Shown: positions 56,801 to 60,888, numbered from the whole stretch's first letter. The stretch is 60,888 bases of DNA, filler included, from Coriobacteriales bacterium (GCA_031263105.1; 5 parts of 5 records of this genome joined end to end with filler, not necessarily neighbours in it); one strand, 5' to 3'. Program-made: the numbers.

Positions 56801-59800
56801 GAGCGGGGCTACGCGACGCGCGTCGCCGACCTCGCCAAGCTCATGCTCGCATAGGGAGGCGATGAGAAGGCCATGAGACTCGTCAACGAGGCCGACGTCG
56901 CCGGTAGGCGCGTCCTGCTCCGCGTGGACTTCAACGTGCCGGTCGCGGACGGCAGGGTCACCGACGACACGCGTATCCGTGCCGTGCTCCCCACCATGCG
57001 CTACCTCATCGACAACCGTGCGCGCATCGTCGTCATCGCCCACCAGGGGCGCCCCAAGGGGGAGGGCTACGAGCGCAGGTACACCTTGGCGCCCATCGCC
57101 TACGCCCTCGGCAAGCTGCTGCGGCAGGAGGTGCGCCTCACGCACGACATCCTCGGCATGCAGACCACCGCCGACGTGGCCGCGCTCGGCGACGGCGAGG
57201 TGCTCATGCTGGAGAACCTGCGCTTCGATGCGGGCGAGAAGGCCTGCGACCCGCTGTTCGCCCGCCGCCTCGCCGAGCTCGCGGACCTCTTCGTCAACGA
57301 CGCCTTCGCCGCCGCGCACCGCCCCCATGCCTCCATCACCGGCGTGACGGGCTTCCTACCGAGCTATGCCGGCTTCCTCATGAACAAGGAGCTGGGCACC
57401 TTCGAGCGCATGCTGGCGCATCCCGCGCATCCCTTCGTCGCCATCCTCGGCGGGTCGAAGGTCTCCGACAAGATAAAGGTCATCGACAAGCTCATCGACG
57501 TGGTCGACGTCATCGTCATCGGCGGCGCGATGTGCTTCACCTTCCTCCATGCCCAGGGCCATGCCGTCGGGGCCTCCCTCAAGGAGGACGACTGGACGGA
57601 GCCTGCGCGCGCCCTGCTCAAAAAGGCGCGGGAGAAGGGCGTCCAGTTCCTGCTCCCCATAGACCTCGTAGTCGCATCCGAGGCCTCCGCCGACGCCGAG
57701 ACCTCCGTCTGCGACGTCGCCGCCGGCATACCGGACGACCGGATGGGCCTCGACATAGGGCCTGCGACCGTCGAACTCTACCGCAAGGCGATAGCCGAGG
57801 GGCGCACGGTGTTCTGGAACGGCCCGATGGGCGTGTTCGAGCTGGAGCCCTTCGCGGACGGCACGCGCCAGGTGGCGACGGCCGTCGCCATGAACAGCGG
57901 CGCCGCCACCATCATCGGCGGCGGCGACAGCATCGCGGCCATCAACAAGTTCGGCTACAACGACCTCGTGACCTTCATCTCGACCGGCGGCGGCGCCGCC
58001 CTCGAGCTGCTCGAGGGGCGCGAGCTCCCCGGTGTCGCCGCCTTGGAGGGGACGCCATGACCCGCAGGCCGCCTGCATCGACGCAGAGGCCGCCCGCCCC
58101 GCCTCGCAGGCCGCCCGTCGCATGACCCGAGAACCGCCCGTCGCATCGGAGGGAGCACCATGACCCGCAAGCCGCTCGTCGCAGGCAACTGGAAGATGAA
58201 CAGGACCACCGTCGAGGCGGCCATCCTCGCCCAGGACATCAGCAACCGCTTCTATCAGGACTACGACCGGGTGGACACGGTGCTCTGCCCGCCCTTCATC
58301 GACCTCAAGACCGTGCGCACGGTGCTCGAGTTCGACCGGTCGCCCCTCATGCTCGGCGCCCAGGACGTGTTCTGGGAGGACGCCGGGGCCTTCACGGGCG
58401 CGACCTCGCCCCTCATGCTCAAGGAGGTCGGCTGCAGCTACTGCATCGTGGGCCACTCGGAGCGCCGCGAGCTCTTCGCGGAGACCGACCTCACGGTGGG
58501 CAGAAAGGCCCGTGCGCTGCTCGGCCACGGCATCGTCCCCATCGTCTGCGTCGGCGAGGGGCCGTCTGTGCGCGAGGAGGGGGAGAAGGCCGCCATCGCC
58601 TTCGTGACGGCGCAGCTCGAGGCGGCGCTGCGCTCGGCGGGCCTTGAGGGCTTCGAGGGCCTTGCGGGCCTTGCGGGCCTTGAGGGCTCGGGGAACGGCG
58701 AGGAAAGCGGGCCCCCCGAGGGCCTCAGCCTCCCCGGCGGGCCGGCGGGCCTGGAGAAGGTCGTCGTGGCCTATGAGCCCGTCTGGGCGATAGGGACGGG
58801 GCGCACCGCCACGCCGGAGGCCGCCCAGGCGGTCTGTGCGGCGATCCGGGAGCGCCTTGCCGCCGTGGTGGGGCCGAGGACGGCCGAGGGGGCCCGCATC
58901 CTGTACGGCGGCTCCCTGAACGCAGGCAACGCCGCGCTGTTCGTCTCGCAGCCGGACATCGACGGGGGCCTTGTCGGCGGCGCGGCGCTCGACGCGGACT
59001 CCTTCGTCGAGATCGTGAGGGTCTTCCTGTGAGGCTGCCCGCCCTGCTCGCCATACTCGACGGGGTCGGCATCGCCGCCCCCTCGCCCACGAACGCCGTG
59101 ACCAGCGCCGACGCCCCCTTCCTGCAGGGGCTCTTCGGCGGCGCCGTCTGGCCCTGCCGCCTGCTCGGCGCCTCGGGGCGCGACGTCGGCCTGCCCGAGG
59201 GGCAGATGGGCAACTCCGAGGTGGGGCACCTCAACATCGGGGCCGGCCGCGTCGTGGACCAGGAGCTGACCCGCATCGACCGCGCCATCGAGGAGGGGGC
59301 CCTGCGCGGGAACCCAGCCCTGCTCGCGGCCTTCGAGGCCGCGCGGGAGCGGGGCACGGCCGTGCATCTCATGGGCCTGCTCTCCGACGGCGGCGTCCAC
59401 AGCATGGACGGCCATCTGAGGGCACTGCTTGCGATGGCCGCCGACTGCGGGGTGCGACGCATCCGCGTCGACGCCTTCCTCGACGGGCGCGACGTGCCCC
59501 CTGCCAGCGGGAAGGCCTACGTGGAGCGCATCTGCGCCTTCCTGCGGGGGCTTAAGGAGGCCCATCCCGGCCTCGACGCGCGCATAGGGATGCTCGCGGG
59601 GCGCTACTATGCCATGGACCGCGACAACCGCTGGGAGCGCGTCGAGCGGGCCTGGCGGGCGCTGGTCGTGCCCGGTGCGTCCGACGGTGCCGAGTCTGTC
59701 GCGCCCACAGCGTCCGCAGCGCCCGACGGTGCCGCCCCGTTCGCCGCTTCGGCATCGACATTTCCCTCCTTCGGAGGGGGTCCGAGCGCCCGGGAAACGC

Positions 59801-60888
59801 GCAGCGTTTCCCGCGCGGACGGGCCGACAGGCCCATGGACGGCGCGAAGCGCCGGGGTGGTTCTCCCGGCCGTCGACTCCTCTGCGATCGCCCCCGCAGA
59901 CGCCGACCCCGCGCACCTGGTGCAGGCCTCCTACGACGCCGGCGTGACCGACGAGTTCGTCGTGCCGGTCGCCATCGGGGAGGACGCCCTGGCCAGCGGG
60001 GACAGCGTCGTCTTCTTCAACTTCCGCCCCGACCGTGCGCGCGAGCTCACCCGCGCCCTCATCGACCCTGCGTTCACGGGCTTCGTGCGCCCCTCCGTGC
60101 CGGAGCTTGCCTACGTCTGCATGACGGAGTACGACCCCGCCTTCGAGCGCGACCTCGGCGCACGGGTCGCCTTCCCCAAGGCCTTCCCGGAGAACGTGCT
60201 CGCCGACTGCCTGGCCTCGCACGGCCTCAGGCAGCTGCACATCGCCGAGACGGAGAAGTACGCGCACGTGACCTTCTTCTTCAACGGGGGCGTGGAGGAG
60301 CCGAAGCCCGGGGAGCAGCGCATCCTCGTCCCCAGCCCCAAGGCGGCGACCTACGACCTCAAGCCGCAGATGAGCGCACCTGAGCTCACGCGGGCGCTGG
60401 TGGGCGCCATCGAGTCCGACGCGGCCGACGTCTACATCGTCAACTACGCCAACGGAGACATGGTGGGCCATACCGGCAGCCTTCCGGCGGCGGTTGAGGC
60501 CATGGAGGCGGTGGACCGGGGGCTCAAGTGCGTCATCGACGCGATCGTCGGGGCGGGCGGCGTCGCGCTCGTCACCGCCGACCACGGCAATGCCGAGCAG
60601 ATGGCCGACGTCGAGGGCGGCGCATGGACGGCGCACACGCTCTCGCCGGTCCCGCTCGTCCTCATCGCTCCGGGAGACGACCGGGCCGACCTCGACCGCA
60701 GCGCCCCCGCGCGCCTCGCCGACGTCGCCCCGACCCTGCTCGACCTCATAGGCCTCCCCGTCCCCGAGGAGTGGACCGGTCGCTCGCTGCTTGTGCGCCG
60801 TGGTTGAGTTTCGTGACAGAGGGGACGGTACTGTTTTTCGTGACAGAGGGGACGGGACTGTTTTTGAATCACCCGCGCCAGCGGGGGC

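What a model noticed while it worked through the whole genome (the two positions that open the first line are those of the whole stretch)
59746..59878. A 133-bp multi-hairpin repeat found full-length only inside ORFs, read in one frame as a 41-45-aa peptide module (RPE-li [...]
A second repeat of about 133 bp, made of four short hairpins (a typical copy is C222:7771-7903), occurs seven times at full length, every time inside an open reading frame: iPGM (C226:8769-8901 in g02303), PheT (C43:4326-4457), an aminotransferase (C62:1918-2018), the N-terminus of the cysteine desulfurase that also holds a MITE (C117:2362-2485), a CCG-domain protein (C110:4473-4605), a BcrAD/BadFG-type activator (C224:5377-5505) and g02271 (C222:7771-7903). 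Six are co-oriented with the gene and in the same phase, so that all six give the same peptide module (in g02271: [sequence left out]); the PheT copy is inverted and reads [sequence left out] (a shortened inverted copy is in citramalate [...]
Evidence so far: nhmmer with a 4-copy seed: 123 hits; the 7 with score >70 and model span >=100 all lie in genes, all others (score <=66) cover only model positions ~34-106 or less than the whole. Orientation, phase and peptides. Pfam models are interrupted exactly there: iPGM_N 1-128 | 133-216 with 74 aa between, Aminotran_1_2 6-119 | 137-361 with 64 aa between. Six-frame search with the 41-aa module: 7 matches in this genome, 0 in 33 of 33 other f__UBA8131 genomes. 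Further repeat-derived inserts in ArgJ, CimA and PurH match 22-32 other places of the genome.
(Added by a program. Inside this text positions count along the whole contig: they may not be those of the stretch shown here. "Call 12" and the like, gene names such as g00115 and contig names such as C1 are that model's own, and its searches are not shown. The text may have been shortened before it was handed on; [...] marks where a part breaks off. The agent that wrote the report below was given it as the finding of a first reader that could run no searches.)

Follow-up and report, generated by a model that had tools for sequence, protein, structure and literature searches.

The report
In-frame hairpin repeat inside housekeeping genes
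A small hairpin-forming repeat has copied itself into the coding sequence of many genes of an uncultured termite-gut actinobacterium, including essential enzymes, always readable as a harmless extra peptide loop, much as the palindromic elements of Rickettsia do.

Summary
The 133 bp at 59746-59878 lie in frame inside the iPGM gene (59029-60807). Five near-full copies and one shortened copy lie in six other ORFs. The stretch is missing from iPGM of 27 of 27 relatives.

The repeat is composite. An outer two/three-hairpin element ("A", 94 nt between fixed end motifs) carries one 60-bp unit ("B") of an abundant intergenic MITE. Of 117 B-only hits, 114 lie outside genes. A alone sits in at least 8 further places inside genes, including citramalate synthase, Dxs, a P-type ATPase and MurJ.

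Nine co-oriented copies read ..FPS.GG..VV.. and five inverted copies read ..ETTP.LR.TPP.EGN.. Other frames are mostly open, so stops are not the filter. Inserts sit in loops, linkers or tails. In the iPGM model they are disordered while the fold stays intact.

Two close relatives carry copies where this genome has only end remnants, and iPGM shows the converse, so copies are gained and lost.

The RPE-like reading is supported. Translation and the mobilising enzyme are not shown.

Unexpectedly, the 41-nt A core occurs exactly in at least 38 genomes of many phyla, twice inside HsdR genes.

The parts
59029..60807 (+). Host gene: 2,3-bisphosphoglycerate-independent phosphoglycerate mutase (iPGM), 592 aa
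   Evidence: ORF. Pfam Metalloenzyme 4-576 and iPGM_N in two stretches. 50-72% identity to iPGM of 27 relatives. It shares every column that is invariant across the 63 aligned sequences.
59677..59898 (+). Whole extra segment (about aa 217-290) with no counterpart in orthologues: the repeat plus Ala/Pro/Ser-rich flanks
   Evidence: No relative's match covers residues 232-277. Alignments. AlphaFold2 pLDDT is below 50 for residues 220-280, with no secondary structure, while the rest of the protein is confident. Edges are approximate.
59746..59779 (+). Outer element A, left part: end motif GCTTCGGCATCGACA plus hairpin 1 (CCCTCC-TTC-GGAGGG); read ASASTFPSFGG
   Evidence: Hairpin 1 is 95.8% paired over 17 A copies.
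59780..59840 (+). Nested unit B (61 nt, net +60): two hairpins (GGGAAACGC/GCGTTTCCC and GGGCC/GGCCC); read PSARETRSVSRADGPTGPWT
   Evidence: nhmmer gives 124 B hits in the genome, 114 of them outside genes. B forms tandem arrays of up to 4 units with a 60-bp period. Coordinates.
59841..59878 (+). Outer element A, right part: hairpin 2 (GGCGC-GAA-GCGCC), GGGGTGGT, and the 'type 2' end ..GGCCGTCGAC; read ARSAGVVLPAVD
   Evidence: Hairpin 2 is 97.6% paired, with changes on both sides in 3 of 5 pairs.
19464..19617 (-). Second composite copy in the window (154 nt, 'type 1' end ..CCGATGTAGGC), in the C-terminal tail of a DUF948 protein (gene 19368-20108, minus strand)
   Evidence: The translation is AASTFPSFGGGSSARETHSVSSENGPTGPRTARSAGVVSTAAPASTAPDVG.
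50192..50344 (+). Third composite copy in the window, at aa 1294-1336 of a 1480-aa BcrAD/BadFG-type activase (gene 46313-50755, plus strand)

Best explanation
The 133 bp are one copy of a non-autonomous, hairpin-rich repeat that has colonised protein-coding DNA of this Coriobacteriales genome. It is carried in frame, as Rickettsia palindromic elements are.

Anatomy:
- An outer element A has a 41-44-nt two-hairpin core, with coding-type ends GCGGCATCGAC.. and ..CGATGTGGGC or ..GCCGTCGAC.
- A measures 94 nt between fixed end motifs.
- In 7 copies A holds one 60-bp unit B, borrowed from an abundant intergenic MITE, at one fixed point between hairpins 1 and 2 (154 nt in all).

How it works (shown or inferred):
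- Copies arise at the DNA level. Shown: 85-95% nucleotide identity in unrelated genes, and absence from orthologues.
- Copies persist inside genes only where three conditions hold. The added length is a multiple of three. The copy lands in frame +1 (co-oriented: ..AASTFPSFGG..ARSAGVVSTAA..DVG) or frame -1 (inverted: PTSR..VETTPALRATPPKEGNVDAA). The site is a surface loop, an inter-domain linker or a tail. Shown: these are the sites and frames found.
- The two frames share their third codon position. They give stop-free, low-charge Ala/Ser/Thr/Gly/Pro-rich peptides. Shown.
- The ribosome reads through, and the peptide forms a disordered excursion that leaves the fold intact. Inferred from open frames, conserved host residues and the model.
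- The hairpins, not the peptide, are what the element conserves. Shown for hairpin 2 by covariation.
- Copies later decay by loss of the hairpin core, leaving end remnants and low-complexity linkers. Inferred from three comparisons with close relatives.

The enzyme that moves A is unknown. Only the B-bearing MITE is linked to IS200/IS605-type Y1 transposase genes.
For: Repeat and composite anatomy:
- BLAST and nhmmer. Alignment of 15 in-gene copies.
- A-only copies have the same ends and lack exactly 60 nt.
- B-only hits lie outside genes in 114 of 117 cases, against 7 of 7 composites in genes.
- 5 of 7 composite B units are each other's nearest relatives and share 4 diagnostic changes.

Absent from orthologues:
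- iPGM: 27 of 27 relatives with a match (3 of 30 had none).
- PheT 11 of 11. CimA 8 of 8. Dxs 12 of 12. Aminotransferase: 6 of 6 orthologues matched in both halves.

Frames:
- 9 of 9 co-oriented in-CDS copies use frame +1, and the ambiguous CysDes copy does too. 5 of 5 inverted copies use frame -1.
- Among the 15 copies, the four unused frames are open in 10-13 each.
- The rough chance of this pattern is about 1e-4 (my arithmetic).
- The used frames have the least bad codon scores (-0.07 and -0.12 bits per codon, against -0.36 to -0.66). They remain far below real genes (+0.47).

Length:
- 94 or 154 nt in 14 of 15 copies. The exception is shorter by 18 nt, which is 6 codons.

Sites:
- Domains continue on both sides in iPGM, PheT, CimA, Dxs, the aminotransferase and the ATPase.
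- The iPGM model has mean pLDDT 86.4 and pTM 0.84. Only residues 220-280 fall below 50.
- iPGM shares every column that is invariant across the 63 aligned sequences.
- No second iPGM or PheT was found in the genome.

Structure is conserved, the peptide is not:
- Hairpin 2 switches GGCGC/GCGCC to GCCCC/GGGGC. The peptide changes from ARSA to PRRG while 97.6% of cells stay paired.

Turnover among close relatives:
- P0124 is 96% identical to C58 over 149 aa. It has a full composite where C58 keeps only ..GGCATCG.. and ..CCCCCGACGTGGGC.
- P0125 is 90% identical to C166 and has two composites that C166 lacks.
- P0002 iPGM is 90% identical and has only AAPASAFPSF-APVD at the site.

Not an assembly artefact: a Logan contig bridges the site.

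Precedent: in-frame RPEs and intragenic REPs are described in PMC10969869 and PMC3733652 (passages read).
Against: - There is no direct evidence that the module is translated. No RNA run holding the stretch was listed.
- No target-site duplication was recognised, and no true empty site could be examined at the DNA level. The ends are defined only by conservation among copies. The putative terminal inverted repeat is weak (about 7-8 of 11).
- The two 'empty' alleles seen still hold end-like sequence. This could also mean that the hairpin core moves into pre-existing end-like sites.
- Inserts are embedded in extra low-complexity sequence that is also absent from orthologues. Insert size therefore exceeds element size (about 74 aa against 44 aa in iPGM).
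- Frame constancy could partly reflect target preference in a genome with strong codon periodicity, or non-independent copies.
- Two copies at gene ends are read in other frames (LspA tail -0, Pth N-extension +2). So is one HsdR copy in another phylum.
- No Y1 transposase gene lies within 1.5 kb of an A core: 0 of 12 loci in 4 genomes. Two A-bearing genomes have no Y1_Tnp match at all.
- Gene calls rest on my crude codon model (78% coding) plus Pfam, not on a standard annotation.
Confidence: 0.8

Rival explanations
1. The copies are a selected protein module (a linker or tail cassette) spread by recombination or gene conversion between genes. The hairpins are incidental, and the sequence is not selfish mobile DNA.
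For: - Copies with the coding-type ends are found only in genes in this genome.
- 'Empty' alleles keep end-like sequence that could serve as homology for conversion.
- The module sits where flexible linkers are expected: the Dxs linker, the PheT inter-domain region and C-terminal tails.
Against: - The peptide is not conserved where the hairpin is (ARSA against PRRG with full pairing).
- The same core is an ordinary intergenic repeat in relatives and in many phyla.
- Both orientations occur, giving unrelated peptides.
- Codon scores are far below host genes.
- The hosts span cytosolic, membrane and surface proteins with nothing in common.
Confidence: 0.1
2. The element lies in the coding DNA but does not end up in the protein. 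It is removed from the mRNA, or skipped by the ribosome as in programmed translational bypassing.
For: - The element is a dense set of stable hairpins inside mRNA.
- Mobile GC-rich inserts that are bypassed are known in yeast mitochondria (recalled, not looked up here).
- No RNA or protein data exclude it.
Against: - Removal would not require a multiple-of-three length, an open frame or a fixed frame, yet all three hold. The used frame is open in 15 of 15 co-oriented readings. Length steps are 60 and 18 nt.
- There is no stop after a take-off codon.
- No Rfam family (introns included) matches at E up to 1.
Confidence: 0.05
3. The insert-bearing genes are damaged or dying copies (pseudogenes in the making). 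The function is supplied elsewhere.
For: - The MAG is 86% complete, so missing paralogues cannot be excluded.
- The genome is riddled with repeats, and 29 of 124 B hits lie at contig ends.
Against: - The frames are intact over 592-1480 codons.
- iPGM shares every column that is invariant across the 63 aligned sequences.
- No second iPGM or PheT was found in the genome.
- A close relative keeps a remnant at the same site with 90% identity, implying long coexistence with a working gene.
Confidence: 0.04
4. Assembly or binning artefact: repeat reads were wrongly threaded into gene contigs.
For: - Repeats break this assembly (250 contigs).
- Depth over 59748-59855 is about 630-650, against about 20 in the flanks, in run X1.
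- Odd homopolymer runs occur in several contigs.
Against: - A separate assembler's contig bridges 59614-60273 with 2 differences.
- 15 insertions all keep the frame.
- Independent metagenome proteins carry the module in other genes.
Confidence: 0.01

Closest known systems
Rickettsia palindromic elements (RPE-1 and relatives; Ogata et al. 2000, 2002, as summarised in PMC10969869 and PMC3733652, passages read)
   Same: - A hairpin-forming repeat of about 100-150 bp.
- Many copies inserted in frame in unrelated housekeeping genes.
- One conserved peptide per family.
- Absent from orthologues.
- The sites are compatible with the fold.
- Decay by deterioration.
   Different: - No sequence relation was tested or is expected.
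- The host is a high-GC, gut-dwelling actinobacterium, not a reduced intracellular alphaproteobacterium.
- The element is a composite of two repeat families.
- Both orientations are used, each with its own frame.
- The hairpin core is shared with many phyla.
Intragenic REPs (GTAG- or CGTC-tagged) of Opitutus terrae, Thauera, Xanthomonas, Stenotrophomonas and others (Di Nocera et al. 2013, PMC3733652, passages read)
   Same: - Short palindromic units, single, as head-to-head or tail-to-tail dimers, or in clusters.
- Some lie inside ORFs and encode 20-80 extra residues.
- tRNA synthetase genes are among the hosts.
   Different: - The A core is longer (about 44 nt, two hairpins).
- No GTAG tag. 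CGTC occurs only in the type-2 end (GCCGTCGAC).
- No RAYT gene is flanked by A cores (0 of 12 loci).
IS200/IS605-derived MITEs / palindrome-associated elements
   Same: - The B-bearing intergenic MITE abuts the 3' side of 2 of the 4 Y1_Tnp genes of the genome.
- The left ends share CACTGTCATT.
- Many copies follow GTTAC.
   Different: - The in-gene A copies lack the GTTAC context and the MITE ends.
- The link to a Y1 transposase is shown only by adjacency, and only for the MITE.
MITEs that make in-frame fusions (ERIC, BOX, cyanobacterial MITEs; review PMC10969869, passage read)
   Same: Small non-autonomous repeats whose internal open frames fuse with host ORFs.
   Different: Those cases are occasional. 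Here a sub-family with its own coding-type ends is found only in genes.
[quoted passage not shown]
   Same: Coding DNA with dyad symmetry, spread across distant taxa.
   Different: PARCELs are 25-residue tandem repeats of surface proteins of unknown function. They are not single inserts in enzymes.

Membership tests
RPE-like in-frame palindromic element (functional class) | Multi-copy, hairpin-forming DNA repeat | tested here: met
   7 composite and about 17 A-only copies. Hairpins 1 and 2 are 96-98% paired. Fold z -2.3.
RPE-like in-frame palindromic element (functional class) | Inserted within ORFs, with the frame preserved and domains on both sides | tested here: met
   iPGM, PheT, CimA, Dxs, the aminotransferase and the P-type ATPase.
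RPE-like in-frame palindromic element (functional class) | The same reading frame, hence one conserved peptide | tested here: met
   9 of 9 co-oriented and 5 of 5 inverted in-CDS copies. Exceptions: LspA tail and Pth N-extension.
RPE-like in-frame palindromic element (functional class) | Absent from orthologues of related species | tested here: met
RPE-like in-frame palindromic element (functional class) | Transcribed and translated with the host protein | not testable with these tools
   No RNA run was listed. No proteome is available.
Rickettsia RPE families proper | Sequence homology to RPE-1 to RPE-10 | not tested
   No RPE sequence was at hand. Not expected, given the phylum and GC content.
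REP/REPIN with RAYT | A cognate Y1 (RAYT) transposase gene flanked by the repeats | tested here: not met
   No A core within about 1.5 kb of 12 Y1_Tnp loci (4 of this genome, 8 of three other A-bearing genomes). Two A-bearing genomes have no match.
REP/REPIN with RAYT | Inverted doublets in extragenic DNA | tested here: met
   Intergenic A pairs in C105, G003, G005, G038, Oscillatoria and others.
MITE (classical) | Terminal inverted repeats and target-site duplication | tested here: inconclusive
   There is only a weak inverted match, GCGGCATCGA / TCGATGTGGGC. No duplication was seen, and no clean empty site was available at the DNA level.
IS200/IS605-derived MITE (for unit B) | Shares ends with, or abuts, a Y1 transposase unit; inserts next to a fixed short motif | tested here: met
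   C168 and C197: the MITE directly follows ..TTAC at the 3' side of the tnpA unit. Left ends share CACTGTCATT. GTTAC lies upstream of many copies. This is adjacency only.
Translational bypass (byp-like) or intron/intein | Length not bound to three, a stop after the take-off codon, or ribozyme/intein motifs | tested here: not met
   Length steps are 60 and 18 nt and the used frame is open. There is no Rfam match.

The most novel reading that the evidence does not exclude
A roughly 45-nt (15-codon) twin-hairpin repeat is shared almost letter for letter by bacteria of many phyla. It matches no Rfam family, and its sequence was found in none of the papers searched. In this termite-gut Coriobacteriales lineage it has evolved into a coding-adapted cassette. 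The cassette has its own ends and reads as a benign linker peptide in either orientation, the two frames sharing their wobble positions. It spreads preferentially between protein-coding genes. It is gained and lost between strains that are 90-96% identical. It would then be an active generator of disordered loops in essential enzymes, moved by an enzyme still to be found.
Probability: 0.3. Interest if true: 0.75.

Novelty: new variant of a known kind. Interest (0 to 1): 0.62.

Why it matters
- In-frame colonisation of essential genes by palindromic repeats is best known from Rickettsia. Here it appears in a high-GC gut actinobacterium. There are at least 15 insertions, a nested second repeat, two dedicated reading frames and visible turnover between close relatives.
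- It is a natural experiment on where enzymes tolerate 30-75 extra residues, and on how selfish DNA can seed disordered linkers.
- It has practical uses. It explains split Pfam domains and over-long proteins in such MAGs. It also explains why their assemblies break.
- The side finding may be the larger lead: one 41-nt hairpin core occurs in cyanobacteria, Bacteroidota, Firmicutes, Proteobacteria, Fibrobacterota and others.

Tried and rejected
- Earlier findings were not open.
It returned only iPGM loci of 55% identity or less. The DNA of the 90%-identical relative could not be fetched, so no DNA-level empty site exists for iPGM.
- Sequencing runs: no RNA holder was listed. The laid contigs of X2, X5 and X3 gave no contig that joins across the site without the element.
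- Rfam: nothing at the finding at E up to 1. Only a tRNA passed gathering in the window. There were sub-threshold microRNA look-alikes on inverted A pairs.
- Plasmid and phage collections: no match to an A copy.
- Literature by sequence strings: 0 papers.
- The word-indexed protein search with the 51-aa module found only 4 proteins and missed known own copies, so it is insensitive.
- The exhaustive search of 1.84 billion representatives gave 3 hits: 1 real host (P0124), 1 MITE-derived short ORF and 1 unrelated repeat protein. Module-bearing proteins may hide behind module-free representatives.
- tblastn of the P0006 insert was dominated by low-complexity hits. The likeness to a translated MITE end rests on one 50-aa match at E 2.6e-4.
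- A Y1/RAYT association of A was tested and not found.
- Considered and dropped: intein, intron or bypass (size, frames, no motifs); CRISPR array (tandem units have no spacers).
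Full report
WHAT IS AT THE COORDINATES

Window 59746-59878 lies inside a 592-codon ORF (59029..60807, + strand). The product is a 2,3-bisphosphoglycerate-independent phosphoglycerate mutase (iPGM). Pfam finds Metalloenzyme over residues 4-576 and iPGM_N in two stretches.

The window is several contigs of one MAG joined by N runs. The MAG has 2.9 Mb, 250 contigs, 64.5% G+C and is 86% complete. The finding lies in contig C226.

The closest named iPGM homologues are MAGs labelled Coriobacteriales. The only run that holds the stretch well is labelled termite gut metagenome.

THE REPEAT IS REAL

BLASTN of the 133 bp against the genome finds five near-full copies at 85-91% identity, with E between 4e-31 and 5e-42. 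They lie on C222, C43, C110, C117 and C224. A shortened copy lies on C62. More than 100 further hits cover only positions ~33-94/109.

As RNA the region folds at -80.9 kcal/mol, against -71.3 +/- 4.1 for shuffles (z -2.3; 3 of 200 shuffles fold as well).

A contig made by another assembler from run X1 (660 nt, 2 differences) spans 59614-60273. The insert is therefore not a scaffolding artefact.

THE 133 BP ARE A COMPOSITE

Copies exist that have the outer 34 nt and the outer 38 nt joined directly. Examples are C126, C190 (three copies), C77, C12, C120 and C3.

I call the outer part A. It comprises an end motif GCGGCATCGACA, hairpin 1 (CCCCTCC-nnn-GGAGGGG), hairpin 2 (GGCGC-GAA-GCGCC or GCCCC-GAA-GGGGC), GGGGTGGT, and then one of two 3' ends:
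- Type 1 has a third hairpin, GGTGG-TCT-CCACC, and about 25 more nt ending CGATGTGGGC.
- Type 2 ends GGTTCTCCCNGCCGTCGAC. The iPGM copy is of this type.

Between fixed anchor motifs the element measures 94 nt in all 8 A-only in-gene copies. It measures 154 nt in 6 of 7 composites. The seventh is 136 nt, which is 18 nt shorter.

The inner part, B (59780-59840), is one unit of a different repeat:
- nhmmer finds 124 B hits: 85 intergenic, 29 at contig ends, 9 inside genes and 1 overlapping a gene by my gene model.
- 7 of the in-gene hits are the composites.
- B occurs as 94 single units, 10 doublets, 2 triplets and 1 quadruplet, with a 60-bp period.
- It always sits within a larger intergenic MITE. 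That MITE has 16-18-nt CACTGTCATTCCGAGC units, then CCGAGGAATCCTTGG, then the B units, then ACGCGAAGC...

That MITE directly follows the 3' side of 2 of the 4 Y1_Tnp (IS200/IS605-type) genes of the genome, at C168 and C197. The units share CACTGTCATT at their left ends.

In all 7 composites B sits at the same point of A and in the same orientation. Five of the seven B units are each other's nearest relatives. They share four changes against the intergenic consensus, including a compensatory pair in a hairpin. The iPGM and BcrAD units are mosaic.

WHERE THE COPIES LIE AND HOW THEY ARE READ

Gene calls are my own: a codon log-odds model that gives 2070 genes and 78% coding. Pfam checks the hosts.

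Composites lie in these places:
- iPGM, aa 240-284.
- A DUF948 protein, in the tail.
- PheT, aa 205-249, between tRNA_bind and B3_4, inverted.
- A CCG-domain protein, in the tail.
- A cysteine desulfurase, at the N-terminus. A GTG at VRAQFPVL could be the true start, so this copy may lie in the 5' leader.
- A BcrAD/BadFG-type activase, aa 1294-1336.
- A class I/II aminotransferase, aa 140-173, splitting the domain.

A-only copies lie in these places:
- Citramalate/isopropylmalate synthase-like CimA, aa 225-247, splitting HMGL-like, inverted.
- Dxs, aa 346-368, in the known inter-domain linker.
- A P-type ATPase, aa 477-496, inverted.
- The N-extension of a MurJ protein, inverted.
- A 2616-aa Ig-domain protein, three copies.
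- A 3747-aa protein.

Frames:
- Nine of nine co-oriented copies that are surely in a CDS read ..(A)STFPS.GG[..B: SSARETHSVSSENGPTGPRT..]..RSAGVV.. The CysDes copy reads the same way.
- Five of five inverted copies read (PTSR..)VETTP.LR.TPP.EGN.DAA.
- The other four frames are open in 10-13 of the 15 copies each, so stop codons are not the filter.
- Allowing for the frames open in each copy and for free choice of the frame, my arithmetic gives a chance of roughly 1e-4. This is not corrected for possible non-independence.

The two used frames place their third codon position on the same bases, as the frame definitions show. They give low-charge Ala/Ser/Thr/Gly/Pro-rich peptides. The unused frames give Arg/Cys/His/Trp-rich ones.

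The used frames have the least bad codon scores: -0.07 and -0.12 bits per codon, against -0.36 to -0.66 for the others. They stay far below host genes (+0.47). GC2 is about 0.7 against 0.46 for genes. The DNA therefore does not look like native coding sequence.

There are exceptions. Two copies with intergenic-type flanks lie in an LspA C-terminal tail (frame -0) and in a possibly untranslated Pth N-extension (frame +2).

Seven further A copies are intergenic: C51, C125, C203, C120:21387, C105 (two copies) and C83.

ABSENT FROM ORTHOLOGUES, AND PLACED IN TOLERANT SITES

- iPGM: 27 of 30 relatives gave a match. In all 27 the match is in two pieces, and none covers residues 232-277 (alignment).
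- PheT: 11 of 12 relatives matched, and none covers residues 205-249.
- CimA: 8 of 8 orthologues leave residues 215-248 uncovered.
- Dxs: 12 of 12 orthologues leave residues 346-384 uncovered.
- Aminotransferase: all 6 orthologues matched in both halves leave residues 147-167 uncovered.
- P-type ATPase: the element lies in a stretch that is long but unrelated in G003 and G006.

Protein alignments show the element embedded in extra Ala/Pro/Gly/Ser-rich sequence that the orthologues also lack.

AlphaFold2 on a 63-sequence alignment models iPGM with mean pLDDT 86.4 and pTM 0.84. Residues 220-280 fall below 50 and have no secondary structure. They lie between helix 202-213 and helix 294-303.

iPGM shares every column that is invariant across the 63 aligned sequences. 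No second iPGM or PheT was found in the genome.

THE HAIRPINS ARE CONSERVED, NOT THE PEPTIDE

Over 17 A copies, hairpin 1 is 95.8% paired and hairpin 2 is 97.6% paired. Three of five pairs of hairpin 2 change on both sides (GGCGC/GCGCC against GCCCC/GGGGC). This turns the peptide ARSA into PRRG. Hairpin 3 exists only in type 1 (60% paired overall). The covariation amounts to few events, because there are essentially two sub-families.

TURNOVER BETWEEN CLOSE RELATIVES

P0002 is a metagenome iPGM that is 90% identical. At the site it has only ..AAPASAFPSF-APVDADP.. This reads like the left end plus half of hairpin 1, joined to the type-2 right end.

The 51-aa module of the DUF948 copy finds two foreign proteins:
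- P0124 is CcmF_C-like and 96% identical to C58 over 149 aa. It has a full type-1 composite in its tail. At that place C58 has only ..CTCCGGCATCG-GCCGCAGGG-CCCGCCCCCGACGTGGGC.., read APAS..APDVG.
- P0125 is TrpC-TrpF, 90% identical to C166. It has a co-oriented composite in the IGPS N-terminal region. It has an inverted composite between the two domains. C166 has an Ala/Pro-rich stretch at the first place. At the second it has a stop codon with a separate trpF.

I read these as copies that lose their hairpin core and leave end remnants and low-complexity sequence. The reverse, entry of the core into end-like sites, is not excluded. The DNA of the relatives could not be fetched.

DISTRIBUTION

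Within the family (33 other genomes):
- DNA like the 133 bp is found in 6 genomes. Only one hit is composite: G003:C84, 79% identity over positions 15-117. It is intergenic, next to an inverted A copy.
- The A core is found in 6 genomes. In the copies I inspected (G038, G005, G003) it occurs as inverted pairs, with no ORF of 150 aa or more spanning them.
- The coding-type ends matched in this genome only.

In the public protein space, 1.84 billion cluster representatives gave one real host (P0124). Representatives may hide others.

The pattern is TTCCCCTCCNNNGGAGGGGTGSCSCGAAGSGSCGGGGTGGT. The 80 loci listed come from 38 genomes. Their records name Oscillospiraceae, Gracilibacteraceae, Defluviitaleaceae, Muribaculaceae, Tannerella, Chlorobiaceae, Fibrobacteres and Chitinispirillia. 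They also name Alpha-, Beta- and Gammaproteobacteria, several cyanobacteria, Turneriella and Ratteibacteria. Three are isolates (Advenella faeciporci, Oscillatoria sp., Brunnivagina elsteri). Many are termite-gut MAGs by their isolate labels.

Only the roughly 44-nt core is shared. The flanks differ. Units are single, in inverted pairs or in tandem.

Of 87 matches in these loci, 4 loci have a frame open for 240 nt or more on both sides. Two of them are clearly inside genes:
- In a Sterolibacterium MAG, an inverted pair lies inside the HSDR_N domain of a type I restriction R subunit. It reads ..TTPALRATPPKEGN..KFPSSGGV.., the same two frames as here.
- In a Hydrogenophilales MAG, a single core lies between the SWI2_SNF2 and T1R_D3-like domains. 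It is read in another frame.

Checks on the core:
- Rfam has no family for it.
- The plasmid and phage collections have no match.
- Ten sequence strings found no paper.
- No A core lies within about 1.5 kb of 12 Y1_Tnp loci, and two A-bearing genomes lack Y1_Tnp.

MECHANISM, WITH ITS STATUS

Shown:
- The copies are DNA-level repeats.
- They are in frame, absent from orthologues and placed in loops, linkers or tails.
- One frame is used per orientation.
- Hairpin 2 is maintained by compensatory change.
- Presence differs between close relatives.

Inferred:
- The ribosome reads through, and the peptide is a disordered passenger.
- Selection removes insertions in other frames and sites.
- Copies decay by loss of the core.

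Unknown: the enzyme and the insertion chemistry for A. Only unit B's MITE is tied, by adjacency, to IS200/IS605-type transposases.

The GAA-loop hairpin GCGAAGC is, from memory, an unusually stable DNA mini-hairpin. That would fit a single-strand DNA mechanism, but I did not test it.

COMPARISON AND NOVELTY

In-frame palindromic repeats are a known kind. RPEs of Rickettsia, and intragenic REPs in several Proteobacteria and Opitutus, are described in PMC10969869 and PMC3733652 (passages read). PARCELs (abstract read) are a looser parallel.

This case works like an RPE. It is not shown to be homologous to one. It fails the REP-RAYT test.

It differs in five respects:
- the phylum and the high G+C content;
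- the nested second repeat;
- the use of both orientations, each with a dedicated frame, the two frames sharing wobble positions;
- a sub-family with coding-type ends that is found only in genes;
- a core shared across phyla.

I rate it a new variant of a known kind, with interest 0.62. The cross-phylum core is the most open lead.

Noticed in passing
The 80 listed loci come from 38 genomes of many phyla, including three isolates. Only about 44 nt are shared. It matches no Rfam family, no plasmid or phage record and no paper found by sequence strings.
   Followed up: partly
L200:1-840 (-) and L221:3-839 (+): Two type I restriction R-subunit genes of Betaproteobacteria MAGs carry the A core in frame. 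One has an inverted pair inside HSDR_N, read in the same two frames as here. The other has a single core between the SWI2_SNF2 and T1R_D3-like domains, read in a different frame.
   Followed up: partly
G000 C168:12373-13138 and C197:3704-4470 (L117, L118): Two of the four Y1_Tnp (IS200/IS605-type) genes are directly followed, after ..TTAC, by the abundant intergenic MITE that carries unit B. Their upstream ends share CACTGTCATT with the MITE. This suggests the MITE derives from, or targets, this insertion sequence.
   Followed up: partly
G000 C117:691-2943 (-) (L024:295-2544): The cysteine desulfurase ORF also holds an in-frame insert of about 130 aa inside Aminotran_5. Part of it reads PLSPRAPLSPRAPLSPRAPLSFRACRGILD, a translation of the large intergenic-type MITE.
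   Followed up: partly
Protein P0006 (metagenome iPGM, 75% identical), same loop as window 59677-59898: Another relative has a different insert of about 85 aa at the same iPGM loop, with SPLSSS(G/S)I repeats and ..SPLSFPRSARES.. This resembles a translated MITE left end. The evidence is one 50-aa tblastn match to C117:7218-7364 at E 2.6e-4. Several other relatives have low-complexity inserts there.
   Followed up: partly
G000 C166:4695-4817 (L155), trpC-trpF junction: The end of trpC reads ..VIARSVSDEAIQSVISEPPTGLLRFARNDG.., a peptide that I recall from spurious ORFs over another widespread repeat. It was not examined.
   Followed up: no
G000 contigs C227:~2680, C248:~16200, C86:~18340, C203:~6270, C168:~13460, C92:~6520: Homopolymer runs of about 18-20 G or C lie next to repeats or near contig ends. 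They may be sequencing or assembly artefacts that mark doubtful joins.
   Followed up: no
window 45059-45130 (+): A tRNA gene is the only Rfam match in the window that reaches its gathering score.
   Followed up: no
G000 C43 (L022), PheT aa ~541-578: PheT has a second extra stretch, in the B5 domain. It is shared with G004, so it is lineage-specific sequence and not a repeat insert.
   Followed up: partly
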